Shown: positions 16,302-63,232 of the stretch, in pieces
How positions within the stretch are numbered: position 1 is the first letter of the stretch
Layout of the letters: every line of letters starts with the position of its first letter
DNA from: Acidobacteriota bacterium
Lineage (GTDB): Bacteria > Acidobacteriota > UBA6911
Direction: 5' to 3'
Assembly: GCA_963664705.1 (NCBI GenBank)
Contig: OY761556.1
Location: 5,568,001 to 5,632,000 of the forward strand
Length of the DNA: 64,000 bases
Program-made: the position numbers and the translations under genes
The notes under the pieces: generated by a model
The model's database searches: none
Told to the model about the DNA's origin: nothing
The model's input: the letters and a program-made list of their open reading frames with translations, nothing else

Positions 16302-16346
16302 ATAAAATCAATAACTTACAGCCGCAACAAAAATCTCAAAATCAAA

Positions 16347-43874: not shown

Positions 43875-43899
43875 ACCAAGCGCCTCCTCCTATATAGAA

Positions 43900-43917
43900 T
43901 AATACTATATGGTATTA
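43900..43917. promoter_or_regulatory. Probable MarR operator
   Basis: Near-perfect palindrome TAATACTATATGGTATTA just upstream of marR. Confidence 0.6.
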
Positions 43918-44340
43918 TAATAGTACATGGAATGCTTCTCACATGGTTTTTTGTTTGTAGGCGGAGTAGTGGCTGGTTGGTATCGACAGCTTGAAATCTC
44001 ATTGGCCAAGCTGAGGACCAAATAAAACATGTCAGCCTTAATGCCACCTTTGCTGATGGGAGAAATGCGAAATTGACATTTTGGCGTTATCTCCTCGAAG
44101 CCCGTTTTAAGACAATAACTCATTTGAACCAACCTTAAGCTGCTCGAGTTACAAGAAACAGGCTATTCGCATATATATGCTAATAGCTGCCCTGGAAACG
44201 CAGATGGGCTTTGGTTTTCTCAACAGGTAACACGTTGGTAACAAATATTTGTTAACTTCTTATCCATTCGTTTTGTCCAGTTGCGCTTATTTGGAGTCGG
44301 AGGGCATCGTATGAGAAAATTGATGTACCAAAAGAGCAAT

Positions 44341-44793
44341 ATGAAACTAAACATTTTCGTCTCTCTAATTATGCTGCTCGCTATTGTGAATTCTGGTATT
44401 GGAATTACATATTCTGCTCAATCATCATCCTCACCAACCTTGATTGGGCCTATAAAAGGAAAAGGGGGATATGAATTTTATTCTTGGCAGACGCAAGGAC
44501 GATGGAATTTTGCACTGCTATCTGCCACGAACATTCTAAAATCCGTGGAGCAAATCACGGTGTCGCCAGATACGGTAAGCGAAAACTATGTAAAACTGAG
44601 CGGTCAAGGCATTGAGGCCATCAAATCGCAGCTCAACCGGCTTCCCAGAAATGAGCATATTCTTTGGATTAGTAAACTGGCCCGAGTTCAATCTCTTGTT
44701 GATGCGGGGCCAATAGAAATGCCTTCGCAACCCATTATTGATGCGATTGCAGACCATTGCAAAAAGCTCGGTTTAGAGCTGAGTTTAGTGTGA
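44341..44793 (+). CDS. Secreted hypothetical protein (cassette A-B, gene 1)
   Basis: Signal peptide; GYEFYSWQ..G.WNFALL..TN. Confidence 0.65.
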   Translation: MKLNIFVSLIMLLAIVNSGIGITYSAQSSSSPTLIGPIKGKGGYEFYSWQTQGRWNFALLSATNILKSVEQITVSPDTVSENYVKLSGQGIEAIKSQLNRLPRNEHILWISKLARVQSLVDAGPIEMPSQPIIDAIADHCKKLGLELSLV

Positions 44794-44806
44794 GGAGGTC
44801 TTTAAT

Positions 44807-45232
44807 ATGAAGAAGATTCTGATTTGGTCAGCAATTGTTATCCTGCTGCTAATCCTGCCTTCGCTGGTTGGCAAGCTTCACCGTGCTAGCTATTCAGATA
44901 AACAACTTACGATCTTGTATCAGCACATCACTGCCAGGAATGTTAGATCAGCTAAAATCACTGGCGAATACCTGGAATGGGATGACCTTTCCGGGAACAA
45001 GTTCCAAACCACGATCCCTCCCGATAACGGCTATGAAATAGTTGAGAAGTTGAAGGACCATGGCGCAACCGTCAAATTTGTAAAATCCTCGGATATTTCG
45101 GGCTGGCCCATCATTCTAATTTCATGGCTGCCGCTGGTTTTAAACATAAGCATATTGGTTGCGCTTGTCTTTTTGATTATTTCGATTATTAAGTTAAGGC
45201 GTCAAACGGCTAATCCCTCGCAAAAACTGTAA
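44807..45232 (+). CDS. Stand-alone FtsH-extracellular-like domain protein (TM-domain-TM)
   Basis: GGAGG RBS; SYS...NVRSAKITG...F.T.IP...L...G...W..ILISWLP; no AAA or protease domain. Confidence 0.6.
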   Translation: MKKILIWSAIVILLLILPSLVGKLHRASYSDKQLTILYQHITARNVRSAKITGEYLEWDDLSGNKFQTTIPPDNGYEIVEKLKDHGATVKFVKSSDISGWPIILISWLPLVLNISILVALVFLIISIIKLRRQTANPSQKL

Positions 45233-45365
45233 TCCTATTTCTTTTAAGGTTAAACACTGGCGCGCGCGATTGTCCCGAAGTCCGATTCGGGGAAAGAATC
45301 AGGAACTCATGCGAGCAGCAGTAGCGAGCCTCCGGGAGCACTGCACTCGTTGCCATGCGCCTGAA

Positions 45366-45869: not shown

Positions 45870-46054
45870 TCCAAGACCGTCCTATTTTGAGCAATGTAAT
45901 AGCTGGAGATTATTGCTGGAGCACCTTTGATGTCAATACTGGCATATGCTTCTTTGTAGAAATTGTCAGAAAGTAGAAGAATATCCTCCTTATTTTCCCT
46001 AAGTCCGGATATGAGAAAGAACCCTGTTCGGAAGGATATGAGGTTGCAATCTAT

Positions 46055-46486: not shown

Positions 46487-46802
46487 AAAAGATCCCTCAA
46501 AAGCGCTAAGCTCACTGTGTGACCGACTCTGATCGATTCAGTTTGAAATTTTAACACGAAACGATCGTTACTTTCCTGAAGTCGCATTCGCGGAGATAAC
46601 GCCAAATTGTATATCTGCCACCATTAATGCTACATTCTACGCCAATCTACCCTTCTAGGATCGCCTTTTAATGGGAACTGGGCTAGATAATCGACCGTAT
46701 CATTAAGTATGAAATCATCTTCTTAGCGCTGGTAGGTGGACCCGGAGAAGTTGTTCGTCATAGCTCGTGGCTGACATACAATCTATCAAAAAGGAGCATA
46801 GA

Positions 46803-47555
46803 ATGCGCATCCGGTACCTGCTGCTTCTTGCTGCTCTCACGATCGCTCTTCAACACGGAATTACAAAAGACAAAATACTGAAGGAAAAGATTAACTCTGG
46901 CGATCGGGAGCGGAGCTATGTACTTTTCGTTCCAGAATCAATAGATCCAAACAAACCTGCACCTTTACTGATTACTTTGCACGGTTCCGGCCGCGATGGC
47001 TCGAGCCTGGTGGATCCTTGGAAGAAGCTGGCGAGAGAGAAGGGAATTATTCTTGCGGGTCCAAACGCATTGAGTTCTGGTGCCTGGATTACACCCACGG
47101 ACGGGCCCGTCTTCCTGCGGGATGTTGTCGATGCAGTGAAGGCCCGCTTCAGTATCGATTCAAAACGCGTGTACCTCTTCGGCCATTCCGGCGGAGGCGG
47201 TTTTGCAATCATTAATTCGATTTTAGAACCAAACTATTTTGCAGCCGCCGCAGTCCATGCTGGGGCTTTGCCGGTCCCAGAACAATTGGCTTCCTTCTTA
47301 CCGGCATCTCGAAGGGTCCCAATTTCAATTTGGGTGGGAGATCGCGATCCGTTCTTCCCCATGTCCGCCATGAAACCCACTGTGAATTTTCTACAGATCA
47401 ACGGATTTCCGGGGCAGTTTTCAGTATTGTTGAATCACGCCCACAATTACTACGGCATCGCAGATCGCGTGAACAAAGAGGCCTGGTTATTTCTTGAATC
47501 ACATGTCCTTGAAAATGAACCTGAATGGAACGAAATTCTTTTCAAAGAACGCTAA
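46803..47555 (+). CDS. Secreted alpha/beta hydrolase (PHB-depolymerase/esterase-like)
   Basis: PLLITLHGSG, RVYLFGHSGGG, G.RDP, H.H; AGGAG RBS. Confidence 0.85.
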   Translation: MRIRYLLLLAALTIALQHGITKDKILKEKINSGDRERSYVLFVPESIDPNKPAPLLITLHGSGRDGSSLVDPWKKLAREKGIILAGPNALSSGAWITPTDGPVFLRDVVDAVKARFSIDSKRVYLFGHSGGGGFAIINSILEPNYFAAAAVHAGALPVPEQLASFLPASRRVPISIWVGDRDPFFPMSAMKPTVNFLQINGFPGQFSVLLNHAHNYYGIADRVNKEAWLFLESHVLENEPEWNEILFKER

Positions 47556-47772
47556 GTACTGCCGTACTGGCCGCCCTTTCTTCGGCCAACGAATATTGCG
47601 ATGCTACAAAAGGCGAGAACCTTATCGAAGGGGGAAAACTGCGCAATTTTCATCGTGACGCTCCCATGATGTCGCGATCGGGGAAATTGTGCCAAAATGC
47701 TAATTTGCAGTCGTCCATGATGTGAGGAGGATGTTATAGTTGCGCGGTCCCACATCCCGCATGAGGAGTTCA

Positions 47773-48345: not shown

Positions 48346-48525
48346 GGTCGAGCCTTGGGGAATCTTACCGGCAAATATAAGTTAAGCCGCCGGTCTGATA
48401 CGCTTGGGTGTCACAGGATGGAATTGCCGTTGTCCTGAAATCAGCTTTGCCGAGATAGCGCCAAAATGGTAATTGACCTGTTTCAGAACTGTTTTCAACT
48501 TATCTGAAGCCTATAGGTTGGCGGC

Positions 48526-49290
48526 TCAATTTTCAGTTGGAATCCGCTTCGCATGATCGACGACTAGCATTTCAACCGGCGCTCTTCCAGGCTCCAGTTT
48601 CAACCCAAGCTGCTCCTGAATTGCGGTAAAAAGGCTCGGACCAGGTTGATTGCTGTCCTCTCCGTCTTCTGGAGTCCATTTCAGGCTGATGTCGAATGTC
48701 CCTGCCAATCCCGTGCGATCCACCACCTGGCATCCAGCAACGAACGACAAACTACCGGCAAGTGTTCCGATGAGCATGGACTTTCCAAATATTCCGCCGC
48801 GAAAGACCCTAACCGCCGGGCTTTCCCCGCGCACCTGTTCAGCCTCTTGGCCGCTATCCGTCTTTGGCACTTCCTTGAGCTTCGGCCCATTTTTTCCCAG
48901 CACCAGAAAGTACACTCGCTGCACTTTCATCTCTCGGTGGACCGACAGATTGAATCGTTCCGACAACAGTGCCCGCAACATGGCCGGAACTCGATCCTTC
49001 GGAGTGCCTGGAGGCAATTTTGCGGACAATCCATAGAATTGCTCATCCAGCCACTCGGGGCCACCCGTAACCAGGGGGCTGTCGAAGCCGTATGCGACAC
49101 TAATCAGGTTCTTGAGAGTGACGTTCGAATACCGCACCATGGCCGGATCGGAATCCATGGCGAAGAAAGCCGCGGTTCCCGTTTGCGGTTGGGCAAGCTT
49201 TACCGACGCTACTTCAAATGCCGCCGGTGCCTGCGGCCAGGCCGGAACAGATACGCAGCACAGAACGAGGGCGAGGACAATCTCTCTCAT
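48526..49290 (-). CDS. TIGR03435/DUF3738-family protein
   Basis: AFEVASVK, GGPEWL, ML..LL.ERF.L, VVDRTGL.G.FD..L.W, EQLGLKL and LVVDH motifs. Confidence 0.9.
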   Translation of the reverse strand: MREIVLALVLCCVSVPAWPQAPAAFEVASVKLAQPQTGTAAFFAMDSDPAMVRYSNVTLKNLISVAYGFDSPLVTGGPEWLDEQFYGLSAKLPPGTPKDRVPAMLRALLSERFNLSVHREMKVQRVYFLVLGKNGPKLKEVPKTDSGQEAEQVRGESPAVRVFRGGIFGKSMLIGTLAGSLSFVAGCQVVDRTGLAGTFDISLKWTPEDGEDSNQPGPSLFTAIQEQLGLKLEPGRAPVEMLVVDHAKRIPTEN

Positions 49291-49576
49291 TGTTTCTACT
49301 CCTGCCGCTTTGGCTCCCAGAATACTCTATCCTACAGTTTCCTATTTTTATCAACAGAGTATCATCGGTCCTGGATTGTTCATGAAAAATCGCGTGCGAA
49401 GATAACTCCAGAATGGTAATTGCCGTTTGGGGTCTTCTCACCGGTTGGATGCTCCTCTGATTGCGTTTCTCGAACCCGTGACGGATTACCCCCTTTATTT
49501 CATTTAAACACTCTCGAACTGCAACGAAGTCACATCCAACAAACTTTTTAGGAACTCACGAAAACATTGCTGTAAT

Positions 49577-50008
49577 ATGGGATCCTTTAAATGCGTAATG
49601 GACAGCCGAAATGAAAGGGATTTCTTAATGGAATTTGCGTTAAGAGCTTTCATCCTTCTGGATGGCAAGATCAAGCGATTCGGAGTAAGCCGCTTGTCTC
49701 GGATTCACAACGATCTCATGCCTGAATATGCTGGGCTGAAAATTCCATATGCGATTCTTGTGTTCGAACGTGAAGAAGGAAAACTTGGAGATCTGCGTTA
49801 CCACGAATGCGGGTACCTTGTCTTTGACAATGAGGGAAAGTTGGATGAGAGCAAGGGGCTAAATCATCTCCGGTTGGTTCAGGCTGGCGAAAACGATCCC
49901 AAATCATTTGCCGCCAGGAGAGCGGAACAGGTCCGGCGGGAAAATACATGGTATGCCAGCGGCGACCAACTGAGTCAAATGATCGCACAAGCCAAACAAA
50001 GGAAATAG
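49577..50008 (+). CDS. Hypothetical protein
   Basis: Sole plausible ORF between sites G and H. Confidence 0.55.
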   Translation: MGSFKCVMDSRNERDFLMEFALRAFILLDGKIKRFGVSRLSRIHNDLMPEYAGLKIPYAILVFEREEGKLGDLRYHECGYLVFDNEGKLDESKGLNHLRLVQAGENDPKSFAARRAEQVRRENTWYASGDQLSQMIAQAKQRK

Positions 50009-50173
50009 CTATTCTAAATTAAAGTTCCCGGATAAATTGTGTTCAAGGAGATCCGCTGAGGACGGCGACAAGGGAAACTTCCATTTTGGATCAAAATCGT
50101 CATCGGCGGCAGTAATTACCATTTTGGCGTTATCTCCGCGAACGCGACATAACCGGCCAATCGCTGCCCGTTT

Positions 50174-51310
50174 TTAGGCTCTGCGGAGTTTGCCCGCCTC
50201 TTTGATTATCTTGGTAAGGCGATTGGAGAGTCGGTTGAGGCATTTGCGTTCAACACCAATCGGCAGTCCGCGCCGAAACATCTCCATTGCACGTTGAGTG
50301 GCGTGCAATGAATCGATTACCCCATCTAAACCAGTTCGAATGGGATCTGACGGTCTCGGTTGAGGAACCAGGTGTCGGGGTTTTGAATGAGCCAGTTGAA
50401 ACTCTCTCTGAAGGTCTTTCAACGCCACTTCGATATAGAGCATTGTCATGTCCGGAGAAGTGTGGCCGAGTAATTTCATCAGTACAGGAAAACTGACGCC
50501 GGAGCGAAGCATCTCTGTGGCATAGGTGTGGCGAAACTGGTGTGGAACAATGCGAGTGGAGATTTCGAGAGAGTAACAAACTTCATGCAGATAATCGCGA
50601 AGTTGACGAACGAGAGCATACTTGGTGCTAGGCCGTGCAAGCAGTCGACCGTCAGGAGGACACGGATCTAGAAAACGAAAGAATCGCAAGCGTTGGATAA
50701 TCGCGACTATCGACGAATCCACCGGGACCATCCGTTCTGTTTTGAGTTTACCAAGTGGTACGTGAATGGCCCACTGGCGGAGACCGGTCGAGCGGAGGCA
50801 ATCGACGGGCAAATCGGCGCACTCGCCAATGCGCATGCCGGTATGGCGGAGGAGCAGAAAGACATTCGATCCCAGATCGTTGCGCTTGAGGAACTCCTTC
50901 TGCAGAAGCTGATCCTGTTCGGCGGTGAGCGGACGTGCAAGTCTGTGCGGGCGGCGAGGGATATCTTCACGACGAATCAAGCGGGCGACTTGAGGAAGCT
51001 GTTTGGTCCACGCCAGTTCTATGAACAGAGGGCGTAAAGCGATGAGCTTACCGATATAGGTGGATGTGGCGAGCGGAGGCGTCTGGGCGCGCAAGTGGGA
51101 CATCCAGCCGAGGAGGTGTGGCTCCCGCCGCAGTTGTTCGAGAGAATTCACCTCGGGGAAATGGGCGCCCAGATAAGTAAGGAAGTTGCGTACGGTCCCG
51201 CGATACTGGACCTGGCTTGCTGAGCCGAGCGCAATACAGAGCGAATCGACCGCGCGATCAAAGACATCAACCAGTGGATGTGAGAGGGGAGGACGCCAGG
51301 AGCGTTTCAT
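50174..51310 (-). CDS. Tyrosine recombinase B
   Basis: TGMRIGE, GKLK, HQFRH and LGH...Y catalytic set. Confidence 0.93.
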   Translation of the reverse strand: MKRSWRPPLSHPLVDVFDRAVDSLCIALGSASQVQYRGTVRNFLTYLGAHFPEVNSLEQLRREPHLLGWMSHLRAQTPPLATSTYIGKLIALRPLFIELAWTKQLPQVARLIRREDIPRRPHRLARPLTAEQDQLLQKEFLKRNDLGSNVFLLLRHTGMRIGECADLPVDCLRSTGLRQWAIHVPLGKLKTERMVPVDSSIVAIIQRLRFFRFLDPCPPDGRLLARPSTKYALVRQLRDYLHEVCYSLEISTRIVPHQFRHTYATEMLRSGVSFPVLMKLLGHTSPDMTMLYIEVALKDLQREFQLAHSKPRHLVPQPRPSDPIRTGLDGVIDSLHATQRAMEMFRRGLPIGVERKCLNRLSNRLTKIIKEAGKLRRA

Positions 51311-52353
51311 GAAGGGAGCCTCGGAAGGGGGCGGACTTGCAGCGCTACTGCGCGCGTATATTGCTGGTAAACGTCTTGTGGGGTGACCTGCACATAATGC
51401 AGGGTCGTCTGAATATCGGAATGCCCCATCAACTGCATAAGTGCCGGCAGGCTGATTCCGGCGCGTATCATATCGGAGGCGAAAGTGTGGCGGAACCGAT
51501 GCGGGTGAGCAAGCTTAATACCAGTACGCTTGCGGTGGTAACGGAACAATGACCTCAGTCCGGCCAGAGTCATACGGGTTCCGCGGGCCTGCCCCTTTAG
51601 CGAGACGAAAAGCGCAGCGGTGGCAACCTGGGGCCGTTCCATCCGCCGATAGTGGTCGAGGAGCTGCACGGTTTCCGGCGCCAGTGGCAGTAAGCGTAAT
51701 TTGTTGCCTTTGCCGCGTACGCGCAGCTGTGCTTCGGAGAGCAACAAGTCGTCCTGATTTAGACCCAACACTTCGGCCGAGCGCAGTCCTTGAAAAAGCA
51801 TCACTCCAACAAGAGCCAAATCGCGAGCCATGCGGAAACTGGACCAAAAACGTGCCACCTCGTCCACCGAGAGCGGAACAAGTTGGCGTTTGGGCACCTT
51901 CACTCGCAGCCGGCTCATGGCCAGCCGTCGACGGCCCAGGCCCAGCGGTCCACGCCGCAAATAAACATGCTGGAAGCCCTGTGCCATGGACGAGGGGGAG
52001 TCAGGAAACTGATTGCGAAGAGCGCGATCGGCAACGCCAACACGGTGATTGATTGTATAACTGGAAATCGGGGGTTGGTGGTTACACTGAAACTTCAGAT
52101 AATCCGGGAGAGTCGATTCGGTCAGGTCGGCTGTGCAAACATCGGCGGTGTGATGAAGACTCTCCCACCAGCGAACAAAATGTAGCAGGTAGTAAGCCCA
52201 TGCTCGCAGAGTAGTATCCGCCAACCGGCGGACATACTCGTGATCGAGGTAGCGATTGACCCAGCCAATCTCCTGACCAGTTTCTTGCTCGACCACACGA
52301 ACCGGGCTTTGTGCGGTGTTGCGAATCTGCGGGCGAATCACACAAAATTTCAT
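51307..52353 (-). CDS. Tyrosine recombinase A
   Basis: GLRSAE, GKGNK, HRFRH and MGH...Y; ATGA overlap with recombinase B; start tentatively MKFCV. Confidence 0.92.
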   Translation of the reverse strand: MKFCVIRPQIRNTAQSPVRVVEQETGQEIGWVNRYLDHEYVRRLADTTLRAWAYYLLHFVRWWESLHHTADVCTADLTESTLPDYLKFQCNHQPPISSYTINHRVGVADRALRNQFPDSPSSMAQGFQHVYLRRGPLGLGRRRLAMSRLRVKVPKRQLVPLSVDEVARFWSSFRMARDLALVGVMLFQGLRSAEVLGLNQDDLLLSEAQLRVRGKGNKLRLLPLAPETVQLLDHYRRMERPQVATAALFVSLKGQARGTRMTLAGLRSLFRYHRKRTGIKLAHPHRFRHTFASDMIRAGISLPALMQLMGHSDIQTTLHYVQVTPQDVYQQYTRAVALQVRPLPRLPS

Positions 52354-52390
52354 AGCAGAGCCAAGCTCCAGAAAAGAATGTGTATCAGAG

Positions 52391-52708
52391 TCAGGCAGCA
52401 GGAAGTTCAAGTACCTGGTAGACTCCATCTTTGAATGCGATCAGATCTCGCGCCAGGAGTTCATTACGGGCGCCGGTAAGTTCGTGGCGGTGATGAATCT
52501 CGAGGAGTTCCTCCATACGTTCGTCGGAGTAAAAACTCACACCATCTCGATTAGCAACTGAGACCAAGACCAAGTAGAGAAGCTTTTCCAAGCGGGTTAG
52601 TCCCTGATCGAAACCCTGCCGAAAAAAGCGATGGTCAATCCAACTGAAAGAACCGCTGATGGCGCGGAGTCGGTCCGGCTGTAGCGGTTGAGGTCGTTTG
52701 TTCATCAT
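52391..52708 (-). CDS. Small winged-helix-like accessory protein
   Basis: RLR.I.GSFSWIDHRF...LY..L..VA.R.G.SFYSD...YQVL.LP. Confidence 0.7.
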   Translation of the reverse strand: MMNKRPQPLQPDRLRAISGSFSWIDHRFFRQGFDQGLTRLEKLLYLVLVSVANRDGVSFYSDERMEELLEIHHRHELTGARNELLARDLIAFKDGVYQVLELPAA

Positions 52709-52787
52709 GCTTTCCCCATTTTGTACATGCCGAAATTAACGAAGCTATATGGGATGAATCAATATGTCGGGACTAAATCTAACAAGC

Positions 52788-53291
52788 TCATCGGCGGCTG
52801 CGGTGACGCTCCGACCAACGCCTCTCTCGCTCCCAAACTCGTTCGAGAGCGCGGCGACATGCATAGGAACAGAAGCGTTGCAGGGGCGACCGCCGGCTGC
52901 GGTGGAATTCTTGGTATCAACCAGGGCGATCGCAGGAACACGAAAATAAGTTTCTTATAATGACCCTCGCTTCGGGGGCCGGGCCCTTGTTTTGTTGCGT
53001 GCGCTCCTTTTGCCGCACTCTGTATCTGTGGCTTTGAACGCGGCGAACCTGCTTTCCACCATCAGTTTTGCGGTACTTTTGCCGGGCTTTCCACTCTCTC
53101 CATTTTCCCGCCTCATTGCGGCAATGCTCGCTACAATAGCGTGCTCGGGGGTGTTCCGGCCGGAATATGCGACCGCAGTCTTTCAGCAAACACGCACGGG
53201 CGCGCGGCCATCTAGCTTTTCGCCTGGTATGGGGTCTTGTTCCTTTTGCTTGATTTTGAAGGAGAATTATCGGATGTTCACGAGGGCCCAT
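52788..53291 (-). CDS. Two-Zn-finger basic protein with in-frame TGA at a Cys position (Sec or nonsense)
   Basis: CLLKDC...YCSEHC, then CDRPG[TGA 52919-52917]YQ...FCSYAC...; next stop at 52788. Confidence 0.6.
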
Positions 53292-53689: not shown

Positions 53690-54430
53690 ATGAGAAAGGC
53701 ATCTATTCTTATAATTTTCGCAGGGCTAGTTGTTTTTGTGCTCATTAATGTTCGATATATTTCGGGTTCTTGCATAACTCCCGGTCCTCCATGCCAGGAG
53801 TTTTGGCGTGCAAACGCGGTATTTGCTGGGCGTGTTATATCTGTCACCGACGACACAGCGAAATGGCCGTCTAATCTGAGCTATCAGGAACTGAATAAGC
53901 TTGATCCATCAACAGCCGTGCATGTGGTGTTTGATGTCAGCGAACCATTTCGAGGGGTAAGCGAATCCAAGATTGAAGTCCTAACAGGCAGTCGAGGTCC
54001 TAAGGTATGGTCTTCGGAGGCCTTTGATTTTAGAGTCGGGCAGGAATATATCGTCTATGCATCCCGGCTAACATCACGACCTGACCTTTATACCTCAGGA
54101 TGCGCACGGACTCGCTTGATCCAAAATGCGGCAGAAGATTTGGCCTATGCTCGATCTTTGGCTACGAGCACAGCAACCGGAGCCCAAATATTTGGAACAG
54201 TTTTTTCGCCCATAACTCAAAAACCCATAAGTGGCATCCAGATATCGCTCTTGCTGGGTCAAAAAAGTTGGAAAACTAAGACCAATTCGGATGGCGATTT
54301 CGTATTTACCGGAAAGCCCGTGGGTGATTATCAAGTATTGCTTCCCAGCGGAAGGCAAATTTCTGCCAGTGTTTTGGATGTCAAAGGATGCGCATGCATG
54401 GGAAAAATTCCGGATAGGTTGGACCGATGA
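53690..54430 (+). CDS. Exported protein: TIMP/NTR-like domain + carboxypeptidase-regulatory-like domain
   Basis: N-terminal TM; SC...PPC...AVFAGRV, F..G.EYIVYA...C.RT; TNSDG.F.F...P.G.Y.V. Confidence 0.7.
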   Translation: MRKASILIIFAGLVVFVLINVRYISGSCITPGPPCQEFWRANAVFAGRVISVTDDTAKWPSNLSYQELNKLDPSTAVHVVFDVSEPFRGVSESKIEVLTGSRGPKVWSSEAFDFRVGQEYIVYASRLTSRPDLYTSGCARTRLIQNAAEDLAYARSLATSTATGAQIFGTVFSPITQKPISGIQISLLLGQKSWKTKTNSDGDFVFTGKPVGDYQVLLPSGRQISASVLDVKGCACMGKIPDRLDR

Positions 54431-54510
54431 GAAGTAACTGATTTTGAGGAAATTTACTTTTTGGCGTTATCTCCCACAATCGGACATAACCGGCCAATCG
54501 CTGCCCGTTT

Positions 54511-55647
54511 TTAGGCTCTGCGGAGTTTGCCCGCCTCTTTGATTATCTTGGTAAGGCGATTGGAGAGTCGGTTGAGGCATTTGCGTTCAACACCAATCGG
54601 CAGTCCGCGCCGAAACATCTCCATTGCACGTTGAGTGGCGTGCAATGAATCGATTACCCCATCTAAACCAGTTCGAATGGGATCTGACGGTCTCGGTTGA
54701 GGAACCAGGTGTCGGGGTTTTGAATGAGCCAGTTGAAACTCTCTCTGAAGGTCTTTCAACGCCACTTCGATATAGAGCATTGTCATGTCCGGAGAAGTGT
54801 GGCCGAGTAATTTCATCAGTACAGGAAAACTGACGCCGGAGCGAAGCATCTCTGTGGCATAGGTGTGGCGAAACTGGTGTGGAACAATGCGAGTGGAGAT
54901 TTCGAGAGAGTAACAAACTTCATGCAGATAATCGCGAAGTTGACGAACGAGAGCATACTTGGTGCTAGGCCGTGCAAGCAGTCGACCGTCAGGAGGACAC
55001 GGATCTAGAAAACGAAAGAATCGCAAGCGTTGGATAATCGCGACTATCGACGAATCCACCGGGACCATCCGTTCTGTTTTGAGTTTACCAAGTGGTACGT
55101 GAATGGCCCACTGGCGGAGACCGGTCGAGCGGAGGCAATCGACGGGCAAATCGGCGCACTCGCCAATGCGCATGCCGGTATGGCGGAGGAGCAGAAAGAC
55201 ATTCGATCCCAGATCGTTGCGCTTGAGGAACTCCTTCTGCAGAAGCTGATCCTGTTCGGCGGTGAGCGGACGTGCAAGTCTGTGCGGGCGGCGAGGGATA
55301 TCTTCACGACGAATCAAGCGGGCGACTTGAGGAAGCTGTTTGGTCCACGCCAGTTCTATGAACAGAGGGCGTAAAGCGATGAGCTTACCGATATAGGTGG
55401 ATGTGGCGAGCGGAGGCGTCTGGGCGCGCAAGTGGGACATCCAGCCGAGGAGGTGTGGCTCCCGCCGCAGTTGTTCGAGAGAATTCACCTCGGGGAAATG
55501 GGCGCCCAGATAAGTAAGGAAGTTGCGTACGGTCCCGCGATACTGGACCTGGCTTGCTGAGCCGAGCGCAATACAGAGCGAATCGACCGCGCGATCAAAG
55601 ACATCAACCAGTGGATGTGAGAGGGGAGGACGCCAGGAGCGTTTCAT
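54511..55647 (-). CDS. Tyrosine recombinase B (copy 2)
   Basis: Identical translation to 50174-51310. Confidence 0.93.
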   Translation of the reverse strand: MKRSWRPPLSHPLVDVFDRAVDSLCIALGSASQVQYRGTVRNFLTYLGAHFPEVNSLEQLRREPHLLGWMSHLRAQTPPLATSTYIGKLIALRPLFIELAWTKQLPQVARLIRREDIPRRPHRLARPLTAEQDQLLQKEFLKRNDLGSNVFLLLRHTGMRIGECADLPVDCLRSTGLRQWAIHVPLGKLKTERMVPVDSSIVAIIQRLRFFRFLDPCPPDGRLLARPSTKYALVRQLRDYLHEVCYSLEISTRIVPHQFRHTYATEMLRSGVSFPVLMKLLGHTSPDMTMLYIEVALKDLQREFQLAHSKPRHLVPQPRPSDPIRTGLDGVIDSLHATQRAMEMFRRGLPIGVERKCLNRLSNRLTKIIKEAGKLRRA

Positions 55648-56690
55648 GAAGGGAGCCTCGGAAGGGGGCGGACTTGCAGCGCTACTGCGCGCGTATATTG
55701 CTGGTAAACGTCTTGTGGGGTGACCTGCACATAATGCAGGGTCGTCTGAATATCGGAATGCCCCATCAACTGCATAAGTGCCGGCAGGCTGATTCCGGCG
55801 CGTATCATATCGGAGGCGAAAGTGTGGCGGAACCGATGCGGGTGAGCAAGCTTAATACCAGTACGCTTGCGGTGGTAACGGAACAATGACCTCAGTCCGG
55901 CCAGAGTCATACGGGTTCCGCGGGCCTGCCCCTTTAGCGAGACGAAAAGCGCAGCGGTGGCAACCTGGGGCCGTTCCATCCGCCGATAGTGGTCGAGGAG
56001 CTGCACGGTTTCCGGCGCCAGTGGCAGTAAGCGTAATTTGTTGCCTTTGCCGCGTACGCGCAGCTGTGCTTCGGAGAGCAACAAGTCGTCCTGATTTAGA
56101 CCCAACACTTCGGCCGAGCGCAGTCCTTGAAAAAGCATCACTCCAACAAGAGCCAAATCGCGAGCCATGCGGAAACTGGACCAAAAACGTGCCACCTCGT
56201 CCACCGAGAGCGGAACAAGTTGGCGTTTGGGCACCTTCACTCGCAGCCGGCTCATGGCCAGCCGTCGACGGCCCAGGCCCAGCGGTCCACGCCGCAAATA
56301 AACATGCTGGAAGCCCTGTGCCATGGACGAGGGGGAGTCAGGAAACTGATTGCGAAGAGCGCGATCGGCAACGCCAACACGGTGATTGATTGTATAACTG
56401 GAAATCGGGGGTTGGTGGTTACACTGAAACTTCAGATAATCCGGGAGAGTCGATTCGGTCAGGTCGGCTGTGCAAACATCGGCGGTGTGATGAAGACTCT
56501 CCCACCAGCGAACAAAATGTAGCAGGTAGTAAGCCCATGCTCGCAGAGTAGTATCCGCCAACCGGCGGACATACTCGTGATCGAGGTAGCGATTGACCCA
56601 GCCAATCTCCTGACCAGTTTCTTGCTCGACCACACGAACCGGGCTTTGTGCGGTGTTGCGAATCTGCGGGCGAATCACACAAAATTTCAT
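55644..56690 (-). CDS. Tyrosine recombinase A (copy 2)
   Basis: Identical translation to 51307-52353. Confidence 0.92.
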   Translation of the reverse strand: MKFCVIRPQIRNTAQSPVRVVEQETGQEIGWVNRYLDHEYVRRLADTTLRAWAYYLLHFVRWWESLHHTADVCTADLTESTLPDYLKFQCNHQPPISSYTINHRVGVADRALRNQFPDSPSSMAQGFQHVYLRRGPLGLGRRRLAMSRLRVKVPKRQLVPLSVDEVARFWSSFRMARDLALVGVMLFQGLRSAEVLGLNQDDLLLSEAQLRVRGKGNKLRLLPLAPETVQLLDHYRRMERPQVATAALFVSLKGQARGTRMTLAGLRSLFRYHRKRTGIKLAHPHRFRHTFASDMIRAGISLPALMQLMGHSDIQTTLHYVQVTPQDVYQQYTRAVALQVRPLPRLPS

Positions 56691-56727
56691 AGCAGAGCCA
56701 AGCTCCAGAAAAGAATGTGTATCAGAG

Positions 56728-57045
56728 TCAGGCAGCAGGAAGTTCAAGTACCTGGTAGACTCCATCTTTGAATGCGATCAGATCTCGCGCCAGGAGTTCA
56801 TTACGGGCGCCGGTAAGTTCGTGGCGGTGATGAATCTCGAGGAGTTCCTCCATACGTTCGTCGGAGTAAAAACTCACACCATCTCGATTAGCAACTGAGA
56901 CCAAGACCAAGTAGAGAAGCTTTTCCAAGCGGGTTAGTCCCTGATCGAAACCCTGCCGAAAAAAGCGATGGTCAATCCAACTGAAAGAACCGCTGATGGC
57001 GCGGAGTCGGTCCGGCTGTAGCGGTTGAGGTCGTTTGTTCATCAT
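56728..57045 (-). CDS. Small winged-helix-like accessory protein (copy 2)
   Basis: Identical translation to 52391-52708. Confidence 0.7.
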   Translation of the reverse strand: MMNKRPQPLQPDRLRAISGSFSWIDHRFFRQGFDQGLTRLEKLLYLVLVSVANRDGVSFYSDERMEELLEIHHRHELTGARNELLARDLIAFKDGVYQVLELPAA

Positions 57046-57124
57046 GCTTTCCCCATTTTGTACATGCCGAAATTAACGAAGCTATATGGGATGAATCAAT
57101 ATGTCGGGACTAAATCTAACAAGC

Positions 57125-57628
57125 TCATCGGCGGCTGCGGTGACGCTCCGACCAACGCCTCTCTCGCTCCCAAACTCGTTCGAGAGCGCGGCGACATGCA
57201 TAGGAACAGAAGCGTTGCAGGGGCGACCGCCGGCTGCGGTGGAATTCTTGGTATCAACCAGGGCGATCGCAGGAACACGAAAATAAGTTTCTTATAATGA
57301 CCCTCGCTTCGGGGGCCGGGCCCTTGTTTTGTTGCGTGCGCTCCTTTTGCCGCACTCTGTATCTGTGGCTTTGAACGCGGCGAACCTGCTTTCCACCATC
57401 AGTTTTGCGGTACTTTTGCCGGGCTTTCCACTCTCTCCATTTTCCCGCCTCATTGCGGCAATGCTCGCTACAATAGCGTGCTCGGGGGTGTTCCGGCCGG
57501 AATATGCGACCGCAGTCTTTCAGCAAACACGCACGGGCGCGCGGCCATCTAGCTTTTCGCCTGGTATGGGGTCTTGTTCCTTTTGCTTGATTTTGAAGGA
57601 GAATTATCGGATGTTCACGAGGGCCCAT
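57125..57628 (-). CDS. Two-Zn-finger protein with in-frame TGA (copy 2)
   Basis: Identical to copy 1; TGA at 57256-57254. Confidence 0.6.
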
Positions 57629-58008
57629 GGGAGTTGCCTCTCCCAGAAGCTCAAGCCTCGAGGGGGACCCATTCCCCTTCGGGGCACACTGAGCACAATT
57701 GGATGCAATATCCTTAACCCTGCTCTTAGATTAGGATCGGAAATAAAACCGGCGAGATTACTCGAAAATCAAATTCGATTTGCCGAGTAGTTGTTGTTGC
57801 GAAGCACCGTGAAAAAAAGCAGAAGTATAAGGGAAAAGCTATATTTATACTGCTTCACAACTTGAAGAATTACCGAAAGACTTTATAGACCAATTTTAAA
57901 CATTGGCCGGTTATTTTGGACATATTGGGATTTACTCCATTTATAAATTGGAAGGTGTGGGATCATGAAGCTGTAGTATAAAAGTATAATTCAGCACTTT
58001 GGTGAATC

Positions 58009-58878
58009 ATGAACTGGCCAGCCCGAATCACTCTCGGGATTTTGGGAGTCGTCCTTCTTTCCGTGTCATACCTCTGTATCCGCCATTACACTCGTGAGGA
58101 CAACTCGATCAGCACTTCGATCCATCTCGAACCAGTTGTTCGCAATTCCCCCAATTTCCCCACGGTGCATTCGGGTGTAGATCAATTACCACAAGAAAGA
58201 AAATCGTTATCAGCGACAATCCCCTTTGGACGTTCAAATCCAAATTCGGGAGATCTGTCTAATGCCACTGCTGCGGAAAGAACAGTTCGTGTTGCCCTTC
58301 AGATGATTGAAGAGGGTGATTACAAAAAGGCCCGAGATTTGCTCCTGACGAGAATCATGGCTACGCCTCGCGGTAGCAATTATCTCAGGTACGGTAAGCC
58401 AGATCGTGTATCCATGCGAAAGGAAATTACGCTCACTGGAAAGGATCAGGTCCAGTTCGAAAATTGGGTTTACGAAAATGGCCGAGGCAGGATCTCGCGT
58501 GAGCTTGAGTTTATGGCTAACCCAGCAGACCGACAGACAGAAGAACAAGGGGCGTCCGAATTGTGGGCCCTCGGCTACAGCTTTTATAGTGAAGGAGGGG
58601 TCGAAAACGAGAAAAAAGGCAAAAATATTTTTGAGGATTTCCTCGTAATTTTTGCAAATGGTCCTGAAGATTTGGTTCAAGCAGCTCAAATTGATATTGC
58701 CGTTATTGACATTAAGCTAATGCATTCTGCTTCTACTCTTGGATACAGGATTGCAGCAGCTTCTGAGGCAGTAGAAGTGCTTAAGAAATTTATATTGAAA
58801 TGGCCAAATCACCCTAGAGCCAATGACGCGGGTATTTCACTAAAAATTGCGCAGGAATTTTTGCTTAATCCTAGGTAG
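58009..58878 (+). CDS. Membrane-anchored helical-repeat hypothetical protein
   Basis: N-terminal TM; RG..YLRYGKPD...E.W.Y (GWxTD-associated-like); C-terminal F..KWPNHP.A.DA TPR-like helices. Confidence 0.6.
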   Translation: MNWPARITLGILGVVLLSVSYLCIRHYTREDNSISTSIHLEPVVRNSPNFPTVHSGVDQLPQERKSLSATIPFGRSNPNSGDLSNATAAERTVRVALQMIEEGDYKKARDLLLTRIMATPRGSNYLRYGKPDRVSMRKEITLTGKDQVQFENWVYENGRGRISRELEFMANPADRQTEEQGASELWALGYSFYSEGGVENEKKGKNIFEDFLVIFANGPEDLVQAAQIDIAVIDIKLMHSASTLGYRIAAASEAVEVLKKFILKWPNHPRANDAGISLKIAQEFLLNPR

Positions 58879-59085
58879 TAGATCAACTTTCGATCCTATG
58901 ATACGTTCCAGATCGGGATATCCACTTACCCTACGGGGTGGCGGCACTTTGCATTATGGCGTTATCTCCGCGAAGCCGACATCAAAGGAGTATCGGAGTA
59001 TCCTCTATTCCAGCTGAGCTCTGTTGATTGTTCCCTTCAGGAACAGAAATCAGTTGCCTTGGGCTACCAAATAGGGAGATAAGAA

Positions 59086-59463: not shown

Positions 59464-59564
59464 TATCTCGCTTTGGTGCCCATTGTATATAAGGCGCTAT
59501 TTCCTACAATGAGACTACAGGAAAACAACGATTTGCGGCAGAGTGATTGTGCTGAAACAATGCC

Positions 59565-60344: not shown

Positions 60345-60740
60345 CGGGCACCTTCAGTTGTAGGCTATTGGATATATGCTCCTGGTAATTATACTCTGAT
60401 CATTGAGCATACTAACTCCCGAATTATTTGATGCTGTTTGTATCAGAATTTCGTGGATATAGCCCCCAAGTCCCAAGATACGGCCATCCTGGAATGTCAC
60501 CGAACACTGAAAAGCGGCCAGGAAAGAACACTTGAAAACCGGCCACTCCGATAGCGGAGAGTCAGTATCGAATAGATCCCCTCAAAGAATCAAGACAATC
60601 GAAAATTAAGCCAGCAGGGCCTGTGGGAAATGTGGGAAAGCCGCAGGCTTTTCCAAGTCTCCGTGGGAATCCGCGCTTTCCAGCGGATTTCCATGGAGAC
60701 GGCATTTTCCATAGGCCACAACGTGATGTCGACTGGACTT

Positions 60741-61493
60741 TCATGCGTCCTCCCCGGCAGCGCGACCAGCGCGTTGGTGAAGACGAAAACTCTTTCCCTG
60801 CATCTGAATGACTTCAGCATGAGCCAGGAAGCGGTCGAGAATGGCTGTGGCCGCCGGGATGTCGCCGAGGAACTGGCCCCAATCCTGAGTGGGCCGATTT
60901 GTTGTAATCAGCGTCGATGTTCTTTCGTGACGGCGCACGAAAATCTCCAATAAATCCTCCGCGCCACTGGGACCGAGCTTCTTCATGCCGAAGTCTTCGA
61001 GGATCAGAAGATCGACTCGCGTGAGTTGATCGACAAGCAAGCGCCGTTCGCCGGTGGCTTCCGCTTCCGCAAAATCCTGAGCCAGGTCGAAGACGCTCCG
61101 AACAAGGGCTCTATGCCCCGCACGAATGGCCCCGACGGCGATAGCGATTGCGATATGGGTTTTGCCGATGCCGGGCGGTCCAATCAGCAGGACGCCCTGA
61201 TGTGAGGCAATGAAGCGAGCTGTGGCCAAATCAACGAGCTTTGCGCGAGGAATCTTGGAGTTAAAAGAGAAATCAAAATCAGAAAGCTCCTTGATCTGGA
61301 CAATGCCGGCCTGTTTGAGACGGCGAGCGAAGAGGCGGTCCGAGCGCCGAGCAAGCTCGTCCGAGACGAGGAGTTCGAGAAACTCCATGTAATCCAGAGG
61401 GGCGCTACGGGCTTGTTCAAGGCGACCAGGCAGCGCTTGAACAATGCCGGAAAGACGGAGATGCCGGAGCTGTGACAGCAGTTGCGGGTTCAT
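60741..61493 (-). CDS. istB: IS21 helper ATPase
   Basis: GPPGIGKT, LLILED, ITTN and AILDR motifs. Confidence 0.95.
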   Translation of the reverse strand: MNPQLLSQLRHLRLSGIVQALPGRLEQARSAPLDYMEFLELLVSDELARRSDRLFARRLKQAGIVQIKELSDFDFSFNSKIPRAKLVDLATARFIASHQGVLLIGPPGIGKTHIAIAIAVGAIRAGHRALVRSVFDLAQDFAEAEATGERRLLVDQLTRVDLLILEDFGMKKLGPSGAEDLLEIFVRRHERTSTLITTNRPTQDWGQFLGDIPAATAILDRFLAHAEVIQMQGKSFRLHQRAGRAAGEDA

Positions 61494-63064
61494 AAAAAAT
61501 CCTCCAGGCGATAATCGGTTAAGGGACGAATGATGGGATGTTCGGAAAGAAGAGTTTGGACTGGCGATTTTGCCGCCTGTTGTTCAGTTAGCCGCTGCAG
61601 ATCCTTATAGCGAAACAATCGGTTGACGGTGGCCGTCCGGGCAGCCGCCAACACACGTTCGCGGGGATGCTGACGCGTCAAACCGAGGACGCCCTGAATC
61701 AGCCGTAGAGCCCGCACGCCTCGTTCTTCGATGGCTGCTTCGGCCCATTCGCGCAGTGCCGTTCCGACACGTTCGCAACGGGCGAGCAACTGGGCTGCAA
61801 AAGCCTTCTGCGAGGAAGGTGCCACCCCCGGTTCACCGGAACGGGGAGCAAACTGGCCCGGTCGCAAGCGTGTATAGACGGCGACTTGGGTTTCGTCGTG
61901 ATACAGGCGCACGAGGTTGCGATCCCAACGCACCCGGATCTTTTGTCCCAGAAGATGTAACGGTGCCGGATAAAAAGCTCCGTCGACTTCGACATGCCCA
62001 TCGGGGTGAATGGTGCGTTGCCCGGTGCGGAAGAAAGCAAACGGCTCTGTAGCGAGCGGTTGCAATGCTGCTTTCTCCGCCTCAAGAAAATGGGTAAAGA
62101 CCTGACGGCGGGTGGTGCCGTGAATCCGCAAGCGAGCGATGGTTCTATTCCAGCGCCGGAGATGCTCGTTCTGCTCGGCGAGGCTATTGAAGCGGCGACC
62201 TTTGAGAGCGTTATCTTTGACATAACCACCGCTGCGTTCCTGCTTGCCGTTCTCCTGGGGATTGCGCGGACGGGTAGGCAAAGGCGTGAAGCCCCAGTGC
62301 GTGGCAAAGGCTGCATAGATCACGTTAACGTCCGGATCATAGAGGCATGCCCGGACAACTGCTGCCTTCAGATTGTCATGCCTAATAACCTTCGGAACGC
62401 CGCCCAGATCGGTAAAGGCGTTTTCGTGCAGGCGAAGAAAGGTCTCGAGGCTTTGATCCCAGACAGCTTCTTCATAACCGTGCCGGGAGTGACACAAAGT
62501 CAAACGGAACACCCATGGACGTTTCCATTGACCGCTTGTCTCATCAAGCGTGGGAACTCCCTGGAAAAAATCAACCTGGCCTTCTTCACCAGGCGCGCTA
62601 TGAAATACCCCGACTGCGCGACGAGCCCGGGGCAGTTTCCGGATGAAACGTTTGACAGCTTCGTAGCTGTATCCGAATCCGTAGTCCTCGCCCAGATCCT
62701 GCCAGATGCGCTGAACAGACAAACCGGCGTCCAGCTTGGAGACGATCACATCGCGATAGCGGGCTGCCGAAGATCGTGGTGGGGGATCGGACCCGGCGAA
62801 CACTTTGGCCGGATTTGAATCCGAGCCGGCGGTCACTTTGGCCGGTTTTGGCGGATCGGATCCCTCAAACTCGTTGGTTTCAGTGACTGCAGGCTCCCCA
62901 GAGCCGGGGAACACTTTGGCCGCTTTTGCTTTCTGCAGGCGATCGTATCGGGAGATGGTTTCTCGCCGGACTCCCGTTTCAGCTTCTATGCGCCGGTATG
63001 TCCAACCGAGTTCAAGAAGAGCAGTAACTTGTTGCAGCTTTGGCGTTTTCAAGTAGTTCGGCAC
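61490..63064 (-). CDS. istA: IS21 DDE transposase
   Basis: PGEEGQVDF, GGVP....DNLK and P.ENGK.ER motifs. Confidence 0.95.
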   Translation of the reverse strand: MPNYLKTPKLQQVTALLELGWTYRRIEAETGVRRETISRYDRLQKAKAAKVFPGSGEPAVTETNEFEGSDPPKPAKVTAGSDSNPAKVFAGSDPPPRSSAARYRDVIVSKLDAGLSVQRIWQDLGEDYGFGYSYEAVKRFIRKLPRARRAVGVFHSAPGEEGQVDFFQGVPTLDETSGQWKRPWVFRLTLCHSRHGYEEAVWDQSLETFLRLHENAFTDLGGVPKVIRHDNLKAAVVRACLYDPDVNVIYAAFATHWGFTPLPTRPRNPQENGKQERSGGYVKDNALKGRRFNSLAEQNEHLRRWNRTIARLRIHGTTRRQVFTHFLEAEKAALQPLATEPFAFFRTGQRTIHPDGHVEVDGAFYPAPLHLLGQKIRVRWDRNLVRLYHDETQVAVYTRLRPGQFAPRSGEPGVAPSSQKAFAAQLLARCERVGTALREWAEAAIEERGVRALRLIQGVLGLTRQHPRERVLAAARTATVNRLFRYKDLQRLTEQQAAKSPVQTLLSEHPIIRPLTDYRLEDFL

Positions 63065-63232
63065 CTATATCCTCCGTCGTCGAAACGACAGAGAATAGCG
63101 GAAAGCCGCTACCTGGAGTGGCCGGTTTTCAAACGTTCGGTCGTGGCCGCTTTTGGGTGTTCGCTAACACCTGGAAATTGAGATCGACGTAGAATGTAGT
63201 ATTGTGGGTGGGATTGATCCTGAAAAACCCAA

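What the first reader, a model, noticed from the sequence alone, without database searches (positions are those of the whole stretch)
44071..63196. Integron-like gene-cassette array delimited by an unfamiliar 44-bp recombination-type site
Seen in the sequence, 12 aligned sites (leader, left arm|7-bp spacer|right arm): A 44071+ aattgacattttggcgttat ctcctcga|agcccgt|tttaagaca; B 45251+ taaacactggcgcgcgcgat tgtcccga|agtccga|ttcggggaa; C 45974+ tagaagaatatcctccttat tttcccta|agtccgg|atatgagaa; D 46572- gatatacaatttggcgttat ctccgcga|atgcgac|ttcaggaaa; E 47662- aattagcattttggcacaat ttccccga|tcgcgac|atcatggga; F 48431- aattaccattttggcgctat ctcggcaa|agctgat|ttcaggaca; G 49378- aattaccattctggagttat cttcgcac|gcgattt|ttcatgaac; H 50114+ aattaccattttggcgttat ctccgcga|acgcgac|(element)ttcctggga; I 54451+ aatttactttttggcgttat ctcccaca|atcggac|(element)atattggga; J 58946+ actttgcattatggcgttat ctccgcga|agccgac|atcaaagga; K 59481+ cattgtatataaggcgctat ttcctaca|atgagac|tacaggaaa; L 60471/63177- cattctacgtcgatctcaat(IS21)ttccagga|tggccgt|atcttggga. 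Every site is intergenic. Setting aside the inserted elements, each interval holds one gene (two in A-B) of unrelated function, in either orientation, and I found no such site in 1-44 kb. Established: inverted arms around a 6-8 bp spacer is the layout of tyrosine-recombinase core sites. Inference: a site-specific gene capture/shuffling system analogous to integrons or pdif modules but using neither attC nor dif. B, C and L are degenerate and less certain. The responsible recombinase is not identified.
Basis: partly seen in the sequence, partly recalled or inferred. Interest (0 to 1): 0.92.

Follow-up and report, generated by a model that had tools for sequence, protein, structure and literature searches.

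The report
Gene-cassette arrays with two site classes
An acidobacterium keeps single accessory genes between short repeated DNA sites of two kinds, which are likely cut-and-swap points for a recombinase whose gene sits between the same two kinds of site in relatives but was not found in this genome; this points to a gene-shuffling system that is neither an integron nor a dif module.

Summary
The repeat is real. All 12 sites are present, B and C are strong minus-strand sites, and a 13th (M, 46651) was missed. The conserved unit is a 28-bp core (11-6-11); the leader is almost confined to this genus. About 60 sites lie in five clusters of this genome, 47 of 49 outside ORF interiors. Spacers end in GAC or CGT: same-class neighbours are direct (114 of 126), different-class neighbours inverted (104 of 109). 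In relatives, shared segments start and stop at the sites.

The likely enzyme is a 313-aa tyrosine recombinase ('IntX'), distinct from IntI and XerC/D. In 79 metagenome loci picked only by that gene there are 106 sites against 0.2 shuffled, often a CGT site just upstream and a GAC site just downstream. IntX was not found in this genome, so these arrays are probably orphans. A separate two-integrase element inserts into the sites.

Not attC, not dif; ten literature searches found no description. Catalysis is untested. This scan noted what appears to be the same system before in other genomes (e1-6400047, e1-6735796, e1-2195375).

The parts
44071..44116 (+). Site A: leader 44071-44088 plus CGT-class core 44089-44116; closes the left array
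   Evidence: 24 bits
44281..45232 (+). Two cargo ORFs between A and B (170 aa, no Pfam; 141 aa, weak FtsH_ext)
45269..45296 (-). Site B, GAC-class core, no leader
   Evidence: 33 bits
45366..45869 (-). Cargo gene, DUF2569 membrane protein
45992..46019 (-). Site C, GAC-class core, no leader
   Evidence: 23 bits
46055..46486 (-). Cargo gene, weak DMP19-like match
46570..46615 (-). Site D, GAC-class core 46570-46597 with leader
   Evidence: 32 bits
46651..46678 (+).
46767..47555 (+). Cargo gene, alpha/beta-hydrolase (esterase-like)
47660..47705 (-). Site E, GAC-class core 47660-47687 with leader
   Evidence: 34 bits
47740..48345 (+). Cargo gene, outer-membrane beta-barrel
48429..48474 (-). Site F, strong leader, decayed GAC core
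48526..49290 (-). Cargo gene, DUF3738 / TIGR03435 family
49378..49421 (-). Site G, leader with degenerate core
49577..50008 (+). 143-aa ORF at the centre from which the two arrays diverge (the position IntX holds in several relatives); a 68% DNA homologue lies between two CGT sites in G017
50114..50148 (+). Site H, leader, left arm and GAC spacer; right arm displaced to 53585-53595
50149..53584 (-). Two-integrase element, copy 1: 13-bp terminal inverted repeats (50149, 53565-53577), own 7-bp spacer 53578-53584, two tyrosine recombinases (378, 373 aa) and two small ORFs
53690..54430 (+). Cargo gene with carboxypeptidase-regulatory-like domain
54451..54485 (+). Site I, leader, left arm and GAC spacer; right arm displaced to 57922-57932
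54486..57921 (-). Two-integrase element, copy 2, identical to copy 1 over 3436 bp
58009..58878 (+). Cargo gene, 289 aa, no Pfam
58946..58991 (+). Site J, leader plus GAC-class core 58964-58991
   Evidence: 24 bits
59086..59463 (+). Cargo gene, glyoxalase/VOC family
59481..59526 (+). Site K, weak leader plus GAC-class core 59499-59526
   Evidence: 23 bits
59565..60344 (-). Cargo gene, 259 aa, weak MG2 match
60469..60496 (-). Site L, CGT-class core; closes the right array
   Evidence: 20 bits
60495..63169 (-). IS21-family element inserted in the left arm of L, with a 7-bp duplication (60488-60494 / 63170-63176)
63170..63196 (-). Displaced outer part of site L (same flank type as M)
63233..63998 (-). 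PadR regulator plus membrane protein, between L and the next CGT-class site about 170 bp beyond the window

Best explanation
The repeats are likely the recombination sites of a gene-cassette system run by its own small tyrosine recombinase (IntX), whose gene lies between the same two site classes in relatives but was not found in this genome. Shown: a 28-bp core of two 11-bp inverted arms round a 6-bp spacer ending in GAC or CGT; same-class neighbours are direct, different-class neighbours inverted; one or two genes of either orientation lie between sites; shared DNA ends at sites; the IntX gene is a ~1.05-kb module often bounded by an upstream CGT site and a downstream GAC site. Inferred: IntX binds the arms on double-stranded DNA and exchanges the strand pair at the right-arm edge, needing only the shared triplet, so the variable spacer bases stay with the left arm and the junction is resolved by replication or a second exchange. 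Direct same-class sites would excise and insert cassette circles; the two classes would not recombine with each other, so a crossover at each class would swap whole modules. The window is two arrays diverging from G/H, each closed by CGT sites, left without the enzyme and since hit by a two-integrase element and an IS21.
For: Clustering and intergenic position: (47 of 49 outside ORF interiors that cover 63% of the span). Grammar: (114 of 126 same-class pairs direct; 104 of 109 different-class pairs inverted). Breakpoints: (G014 cassette at two loci, 83%, from spacer to next left arm; G014/G028 segment, 91%, ending exactly at the GAC triplet; G000/G007 segment, 88%, ending in a CGT site). Spacer follows the left side: 2.82 of 4 in 79 left-sharing pairs, 1.67 in 12 right-sharing pairs, 2.00 baseline. 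IntX link: 106 sites vs 0.2 shuffled in 506 kb chosen by IntX alone; CGT opposite in 44 of 46, GAC same-strand in 64 of 72; CGT site 49-53 nt upstream in 21 of 44; GAC site just downstream in 27 of 47; site within 1.5 kb at 15 of 23 IntX loci vs 5 of 67 other recombinase loci. IntX modules 98-99% identical in unrelated flanks (3 pairs). Catalytic motifs intact in 115-118 of 120 homologues; separate clade, support 96/97.
Against: IntX was not found in this single-contig genome (best match 29.5%, XerC). Only 12 of the 25 genomes with the core pattern have an IntX hit, and several copies are frameshifted or truncated. 8 of 23 IntX loci have no site within 1.5 kb; loci of 44-47% relatives show no enrichment (11 vs 9.2). 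One pair (L327/L335) shares a whole site, spacer included, with the downstream flank, against the left-travel rule. Pair counts are not independent. No window cassette was found elsewhere with exact site-to-site ends. Contigs and reads laid on 41500-54300 showed no circle or empty-site junction (contigs drop rare forms). IntX could be a frequent passenger. No biochemistry.
Confidence: 0.75

Rival explanations
1. The sites are degenerate dif-like sites acted on by host XerC/XerD, alone or with IntX taking one arm, as for Acinetobacter dif modules.
For: 11-6-11 geometry. The genome's XerC arm scores p=7.5e-4 under the left-arm matrix, p=3.8e-3 under the right arm; the XerD arm scores p=5.5e-3 under the right arm and p=2.2e-3 under the leader. 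XerC and XerD are the only core recombinases shared by G000 and site-rich G014, and would explain arrays in genomes without IntX.
Against: The inner ATAA...TTAT is complete in 2 of 391 sites, and PMC11705084 (passages) reports that a site diverging there was poorly recognised and did not recombine. dif is conserved in family genomes where the site patterns were not found. It does not explain the fixed-position sites round IntX. dif modules alternate in orientation and need near-identical spacers (PMC13141974 passages).
Confidence: 0.09
2. The sites are ends of IS-like IntX elements and of gene-less miniature derivatives that pile up at hot spots; the genes between them are passengers, not independent cassettes.
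For: The IntX module moves as a unit with ends at both sites. 29 of 43 left-arms-inward CGT/GAC pairs are 130 bp or less apart and hold no gene.
Against: 100 of 235 neighbour pairs are direct GAC-GAC with a median of 1.1 kb between, which paired element ends do not give. A unit from one GAC site to the next occurs at two loci of G014.
Confidence: 0.08
3. The two-integrase element seen in H and I supplies the recombinases, and the sites are its targets and scars.
For: All four full copies in this genome, one in G018 and mini-derivatives in G000, G005 and G029 sit in site cores with a matching 3' triplet. It is the only site-linked recombinase pair in this genome.
Against: Found in 4 of 60 relatives, not in site-rich G014. 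5 of 12 distinct left junctions of the element family are at other targets. Its own arms differ from the site arms. It does not explain the IntX layout.
Confidence: 0.06
4. The motif is a transcription-factor operator or a REP-like repeat.
For: Intergenic, roughly palindromic core.
Against: Confined to five clusters; no fixed side relative to genes (6 window intervals run with the site direction, 4 against); class-dependent orientation rule; homology breakpoints; no stable hairpin.
Confidence: 0.02

Closest known systems
Acinetobacter dif modules (pdif sites, host XerC/XerD; PMC13141974, PMC11705084, passages read)
   Same: 28-bp 11-6-11 sites with intrinsic orientation; one or two genes per module; modules with left arms inward or right arms inward; spacer sets compatibility; exchange by two crossovers is the proposed route.
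   Different: Here a linked, non-Xer recombinase gene sits between the sites; arms lack dif's inner bases; most neighbours are direct repeats, so single cassettes could excise; only two spacer classes, sharing 3-4 bp; mainly chromosomal clusters in Acidobacteriota.
Integrons and CALINs (IntI, attI, attC; PMC8618304, passages read)
   Same: Dedicated tyrosine recombinase, tandem single-gene cassettes, distinct sites beside the recombinase gene, arrays left without the enzyme; a conserved triplet at the crossover (recalled for integrons).
   Different: No IntI, no attC hairpin; sequence-conserved double-strand-type sites; genes in either orientation; two site classes; the recombinase gene is itself a mobile module.
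Strand-biased circularizing integrative elements (SE; PMC10214605, passages read) - for the inserted element only
   Same: Two tyrosine recombinases plus two other ORFs; element spacer ends up at one junction and target spacer at the other.
   Different: 3.4 kb with no cargo; 7-bp spacer that is constant between copies; targets cassette sites; homology to SE proteins not tested.
Recombinase-mediated cassette exchange with heterospecific lox sites (engineered; PMC10250229, passages read)
   Same: One recombinase with two site types flanking an exchangeable segment.
   Different: Natural; 11-6-11 rather than 13-8-13; spacers vary within a class.

Membership tests
Integron / CALIN | IntI-family integrase in the genome or linked to the arrays | tested here: not met
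   No TIGR02249 match in G000; 9 of 50 family genomes have one, 3 of them among the site-positive set. IntX is 25% identical to IntI and in a separate clade.
Integron / CALIN | attC sites folding as single-strand hairpins | tested here: not met
   12 folds of 6 sites, both strands, z from -1.29 to +1.36.
Integron / CALIN | Cassette genes co-oriented with the array | tested here: not met
   6 window intervals with, 4 against the site direction.
Integron / CALIN | A distinct primary site next to the recombinase gene | tested here: inconclusive
   IntX-flanking sites have their own left-arm consensus; preferential insertion there was not tested.
Integron / CALIN | IntegronFinder call | not testable with these tools
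   Program and attC model not available.
dif modules (pdif) | 11-6-11 site geometry | tested here: met
   Best arm symmetry at 6 bp over 390 sites.
dif modules (pdif) | XerC and XerD arms like host dif, with inner ATAA...TTAT | tested here: not met
   Both inner motifs in 2 of 391 sites; mean identity to host arms 4.8-5.7 of 11, though above chance.
dif modules (pdif) | Neighbouring sites alternate in orientation | tested here: not met
   119 of 235 neighbour pairs are direct.
dif modules (pdif) | Dependence on host XerC/XerD | not testable with these tools
   Needs genetics or biochemistry.
SE-type element (inserted element only) | Two tyrosine recombinases and a one-sided spacer footprint | tested here: met
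   same 7-bp spacer at the right junction of four G000 copies and the G018 copy.
SE-type element (inserted element only) | Homology to SE Tfp and Srap proteins; strand-biased circles | not tested
   No comparison run; the small ORFs gave only sub-threshold Pfam matches.
REP / transcription-factor site | Genome-wide dispersal at a fixed position to genes, or stable hairpin | tested here: not met
   58 of 63 strong hits in five clusters; no hairpin.

The most novel reading that the evidence does not exclude
A third natural gene-cassette system beside integrons and dif modules: an abundant Acidobacteriota recombinase (thousands of metagenome clusters) travels as a 1-kb module between two mutually incompatible sites, builds cassette arrays outward from both, tolerates variable spacers by exchanging one strand pair, and performs natural cassette exchange; host genomes keep orphan arrays that passing IntX modules can reshuffle and that specialised elements parasitise.
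Probability: 0.6. Interest if true: 0.9.

Novelty: categorically new. Interest (0 to 1): 0.8.

Why it matters
Only integrons and dif modules are established as cassette systems. A third one in Acidobacteriota would explain part of their accessory-gene patchwork and give a function to a large family now labelled just 'XerD' or 'integrase' (7856 of 8000 candidates scored). It is directly testable: a cultured isolate's plasmid (Granulicella tundricola pACIX905, ACIX9_RS23090) carries a 62% homologue with sites of both classes. A single enzyme with two natural site classes is also a ready-made cassette-exchange tool. A soil survey reports that 97.4% of contigs with 'integron-type' recombinases lack a complete integron (PMC13323075, section 15 read); whether IntX accounts for some of these is an untested lead.

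Tried and rejected
Integron: no IntI, no hairpins. Rfam at gathering thresholds on the window and four loci: only tRNA and cobalamin riboswitches. Island integrases at tRNA-Arg near two clusters: not linked elsewhere. A hidden extra recombinase in G000: a home-made profile found only the 27 known hits plus two apparently spurious ORFs. An IntX relic in G000: none by tblastn or blastn; a six-frame profile search timed out. The gene found divergent from IntX in several relatives has a G000 homologue with no sites around it. Leader as promoter: 11 promoter-like matches vs 8.9 shuffled. Leader as a dif half-site: 5-bp gap and genus-limited. Leader pattern in viral contigs: 0. In genome contigs, the non-acidobacterial hits were single or inside ORFs, except one Desulfomonilaceae-labelled contig with 7 sites. 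MarR/PNPOx pair left of A: 91% paralogue is a cassette elsewhere in G000, but homology ends 120-180 bp from sites. Site 5876367 has the element's spacer; kept only as a possible footprint. Sequencing runs: no RNA holder listed. Rows dropped: 7 weak hits; 4 duplicate IntX loci and 4 IntX-bearing controls; neighbour pairs over 4 kb.
Full report
OBSERVATION. The 12 sites are in the sequence as written. A 44-bp matrix from A and D-K gives 32 hits at >=18 bits in the 6.89-Mb single-contig genome (9 are training sites) and 0 in a locally shuffled copy; leave-one-out scores are 18.8-56.1. With leader and core models, 63 strong sites fall into five clusters (18, 6, 12, 19 and 3 sites) plus five singles. 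A family-wide core model gives 63 hits at >=16 bits against 12 shuffled, and 31 against 0 at >=24. 47 of 49 cluster sites lie outside ORF interiors, which cover 63% of the cluster span (simple ORF calls). Window 1-44 kb has no core site. B and C are minus-strand sites, M was missed, and F and G have decayed cores. Cargo genes are unrelated in function. One run's contig spans 43767-50154 without a difference; that run may be the source sample.

ANATOMY. Over 390 distinct sites the arms are most symmetric round a 6-bp spacer (5.62 of 11; 7-bp register 3.79; 8-bp 5.24). The consensus is ATTTCCCAGAA - 6 bp - TTCTGGGGAGT. Spacers end in GAC (268) or are of the CGT class (122). The leader is on 38 of 196 genus sites and 0 of 88 from other genera, and forms part of the interior of a gene-less CGT/GAC pair of 78-82 bp such as D-M. 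Among 235 neighbour pairs within 4 kb, same-class pairs are direct in 114 of 126 and different-class pairs inverted in 104 of 109 (the model was partly trained on these loci, which affects detection but not orientation). The window reads A(+,CGT) B C D(-,GAC) M(+,CGT) E F G(-) | H I J K(+,GAC) L(-,CGT): two arrays diverging from G/H.

DISTRIBUTION. The leader pattern is in 12 of 29 same-genus genomes. The core pattern is in 24 of 50 family genomes from 5 of 11 genera, reversed control 0, and as single hits in 4 of 400 phylum genomes. Record titles name Acidobacteriota for the array-bearing hits, apart from one Desulfomonilaceae-labelled contig.

MOVEMENT AT THE SITES. All-against-all comparison of 36 array regions and inspection of 14 selected pairs gave clear cases: one G014 cassette at two loci (83%) running from a spacer to the next left arm; a G014/G028 segment (91%) ending exactly at the GAC triplet; a G000/G007 segment (88%) ending in a CGT site; a G002/G014 segment (96%) and a G028/G024 segment (94%) that include left arm and spacer and stop in the right arm. 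Several other inspected segments ended 50-200 bp or more from a site. The four variable bases before the triplet match 2.82 of 4 in 79 pairs sharing only upstream DNA, 1.67 in 12 pairs sharing only downstream DNA and 2.00 in unrelated pairs. This fits a crossover at the right-arm edge; pairs are not independent, and L327/L335 is a counter-case. For the window's own cassettes, genus and family DNA searches found only partial homologues or none. Three contig sets and one raw-read run laid on 41500-54300 showed no circle or empty site; the joints listed are explained by other site copies (the raw-read run had 2 reads).

THE RECOMBINASE. G000 has 27 tyrosine-recombinase hits: XerC, XerD, eight genes of a two-integrase element, and island-type or unassigned genes. 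No IntI is present. A 313-aa recombinase kept appearing beside arrays in relatives. It is in 18 of 50 family genomes; 15 of 23 of its loci have a site within 1.5 kb against 5 of 67 other recombinase loci. As an independent test, 79 metagenome loci chosen only by this protein (the best of 563 confirmed) hold 106 sites at >=16 bits against 0.2 shuffled; CGT sites oppose the gene in 44 of 46 cases and GAC sites run with it in 64 of 72. An arm-blind pattern gives 226 against 62.8 in loci at >=71% identity, 50 against 26.8 at 60-69%, and 11 against 9.2 at 44-47%. Among 49 distinct full-length copies, a CGT site lies 49-53 nt upstream in 21 of 44 testable and a GAC site just downstream in 27 of 47; these sites have their own left-arm consensus. 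Three pairs share only the ~1.05-kb module at 98-99% in unrelated flanks. Homology ends cluster at sites (397 of 970 within 25 bp in both partners), but gene boundaries lie close to these sites, so that count is weak. Catalytic motifs are intact in 115-118 of 120 homologues; nearest solved structures are XerA and XerD; IntX forms its own clade, 96/97, apart from XerC, XerD and IntI (long branches elsewhere in the tree). The G. tundricola plasmid has 9 matches at >=13 bits of both classes in 25 kb round a 62% homologue, with somewhat different arms (no separate shuffle). IntX was not found in G000, and 13 of 25 site-positive genomes have no hit, most being fragmented assemblies.

THE INSERTED ELEMENT. 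H and I each hold an identical 3436-bp element with two recombinases. Two more copies sit in GAC sites elsewhere in G000, and a ~250-bp derivative sits in a CGT site with a matching spacer end. The target spacer stays left and the element's own spacer goes right, as described for SEs (PMC10214605, passages). 7 of 12 distinct left junctions of this family are site cores; 5 are other targets. It is found in 4 of 60 relatives. I read it as a parasite of the sites; a helper role in this genome is not excluded.

MECHANISM. Shown: site structure, two classes, orientation rule, breakpoints, linkage to IntX. Inferred: IntX catalysis, one-sided exchange needing three matching bases, cassette circles, incompatibility of the classes, module swap by two crossovers. 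How new genes become cassettes is unexplained.

XER RIVAL. The host dif lies next to xerD near the terminus and is conserved in the family. Site arms resemble its arms above chance (p 7.5e-4 to 5.5e-3), but the inner bases that PMC11705084 ties to Xer binding and cutting are complete in 2 of 391 sites. Shared ancestry of IntX and Xer is the simpler reading; host XerC on one arm remains possible.

KNOWN SYSTEMS. It works like a cross of an integron and a dif-module array and fails defining tests of both. Ten full-text searches listed no description; the library lacks most subscription papers and supplements were not opened. Read: passages of PMC8138268 (no mention of Acidobacteria), PMC3414803, PMC10214605, PMC8618304, PMC10250229, PMC13141974; part 1 plus passages of PMC11705084; part 1 of 10.1101/2022.12.17.520857 and of PMC3469429; abstract of PMC12907356; passages and section 15 of PMC13323075. 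IntX was not placed among the subgroup models of PMC8138268, whose datasets may contain it.

EARLIER SCAN NOTES. After the IntX result, look-ups returned notes on other genomes describing what appears to be the same system. They agree with my reading and are not counted as evidence.

VERDICT. Real, and most likely an undescribed cassette system seen here without its enzyme. Interest 0.8.

Noticed in passing
G000:C1 5884022, 5887790, 5894131 (+); 5019455 (+), 4129904 (-): Leader-bearing sites whose spacer is 5 bp short (three cases in one cluster) or about 3 bp short; they look like mis-registered recombination products or dead sites.
   Followed up: partly
window 16226-44000: Lower-GC island after tRNA-Ala (16226-16301) with a dCMP-deaminase-domain gene, a type I restriction system, two ThiF/JAB proteins with an E2 and a TIR protein, an IrrE-like peptidase and a large helicase; probably a defence island.
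   Followed up: no
window 16346-16872 and 44222-44244: Four copies of a 23-bp repeat with a tandem AAGGTAAC unit, three after the tRNA and one just inside A-B; resembles integrase arm-type sites.
   Followed up: no
window 43006-43874 and G000:C1 5871.1-5872.0 kb: MarR plus pyridoxamine-phosphate-oxidase-like pair, 91% identical to a pair lying between two GAC sites elsewhere in the genome.
   Followed up: partly
L041:9577-10041, L040:10038-10134: IS91-type elements carrying their own tyrosine recombinase end at GAC sites in G028.
   Followed up: partly
L286:6173-6928; G000:C1 6405696-6406346: A ~250-aa HTH plus nucleotidyltransferase-like gene sits divergent from IntX in several family genomes; the G000 homologue has neither IntX nor sites nearby.
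   Followed up: partly
L108:860 and L109:743 (G002): Two near-identical extra dif-like sites with a perfect XerD arm, besides the main dif.
   Followed up: no
L157: A contig labelled Desulfomonilaceae carries 7 sites with the same grammar; transfer or misbinning not resolved.
   Followed up: no
L176:5083-5322 and 5949; L046:1924-2107; G000:C1 2937480-2937730: 180-250-bp non-autonomous derivatives of the two-integrase element in GAC and CGT-type sites.
   Followed up: partly
L067, L083 (G014:C4): Xer-like recombinase copies next to Rhs-type genes, one fused in frame to an Rhs tail.
   Followed up: no
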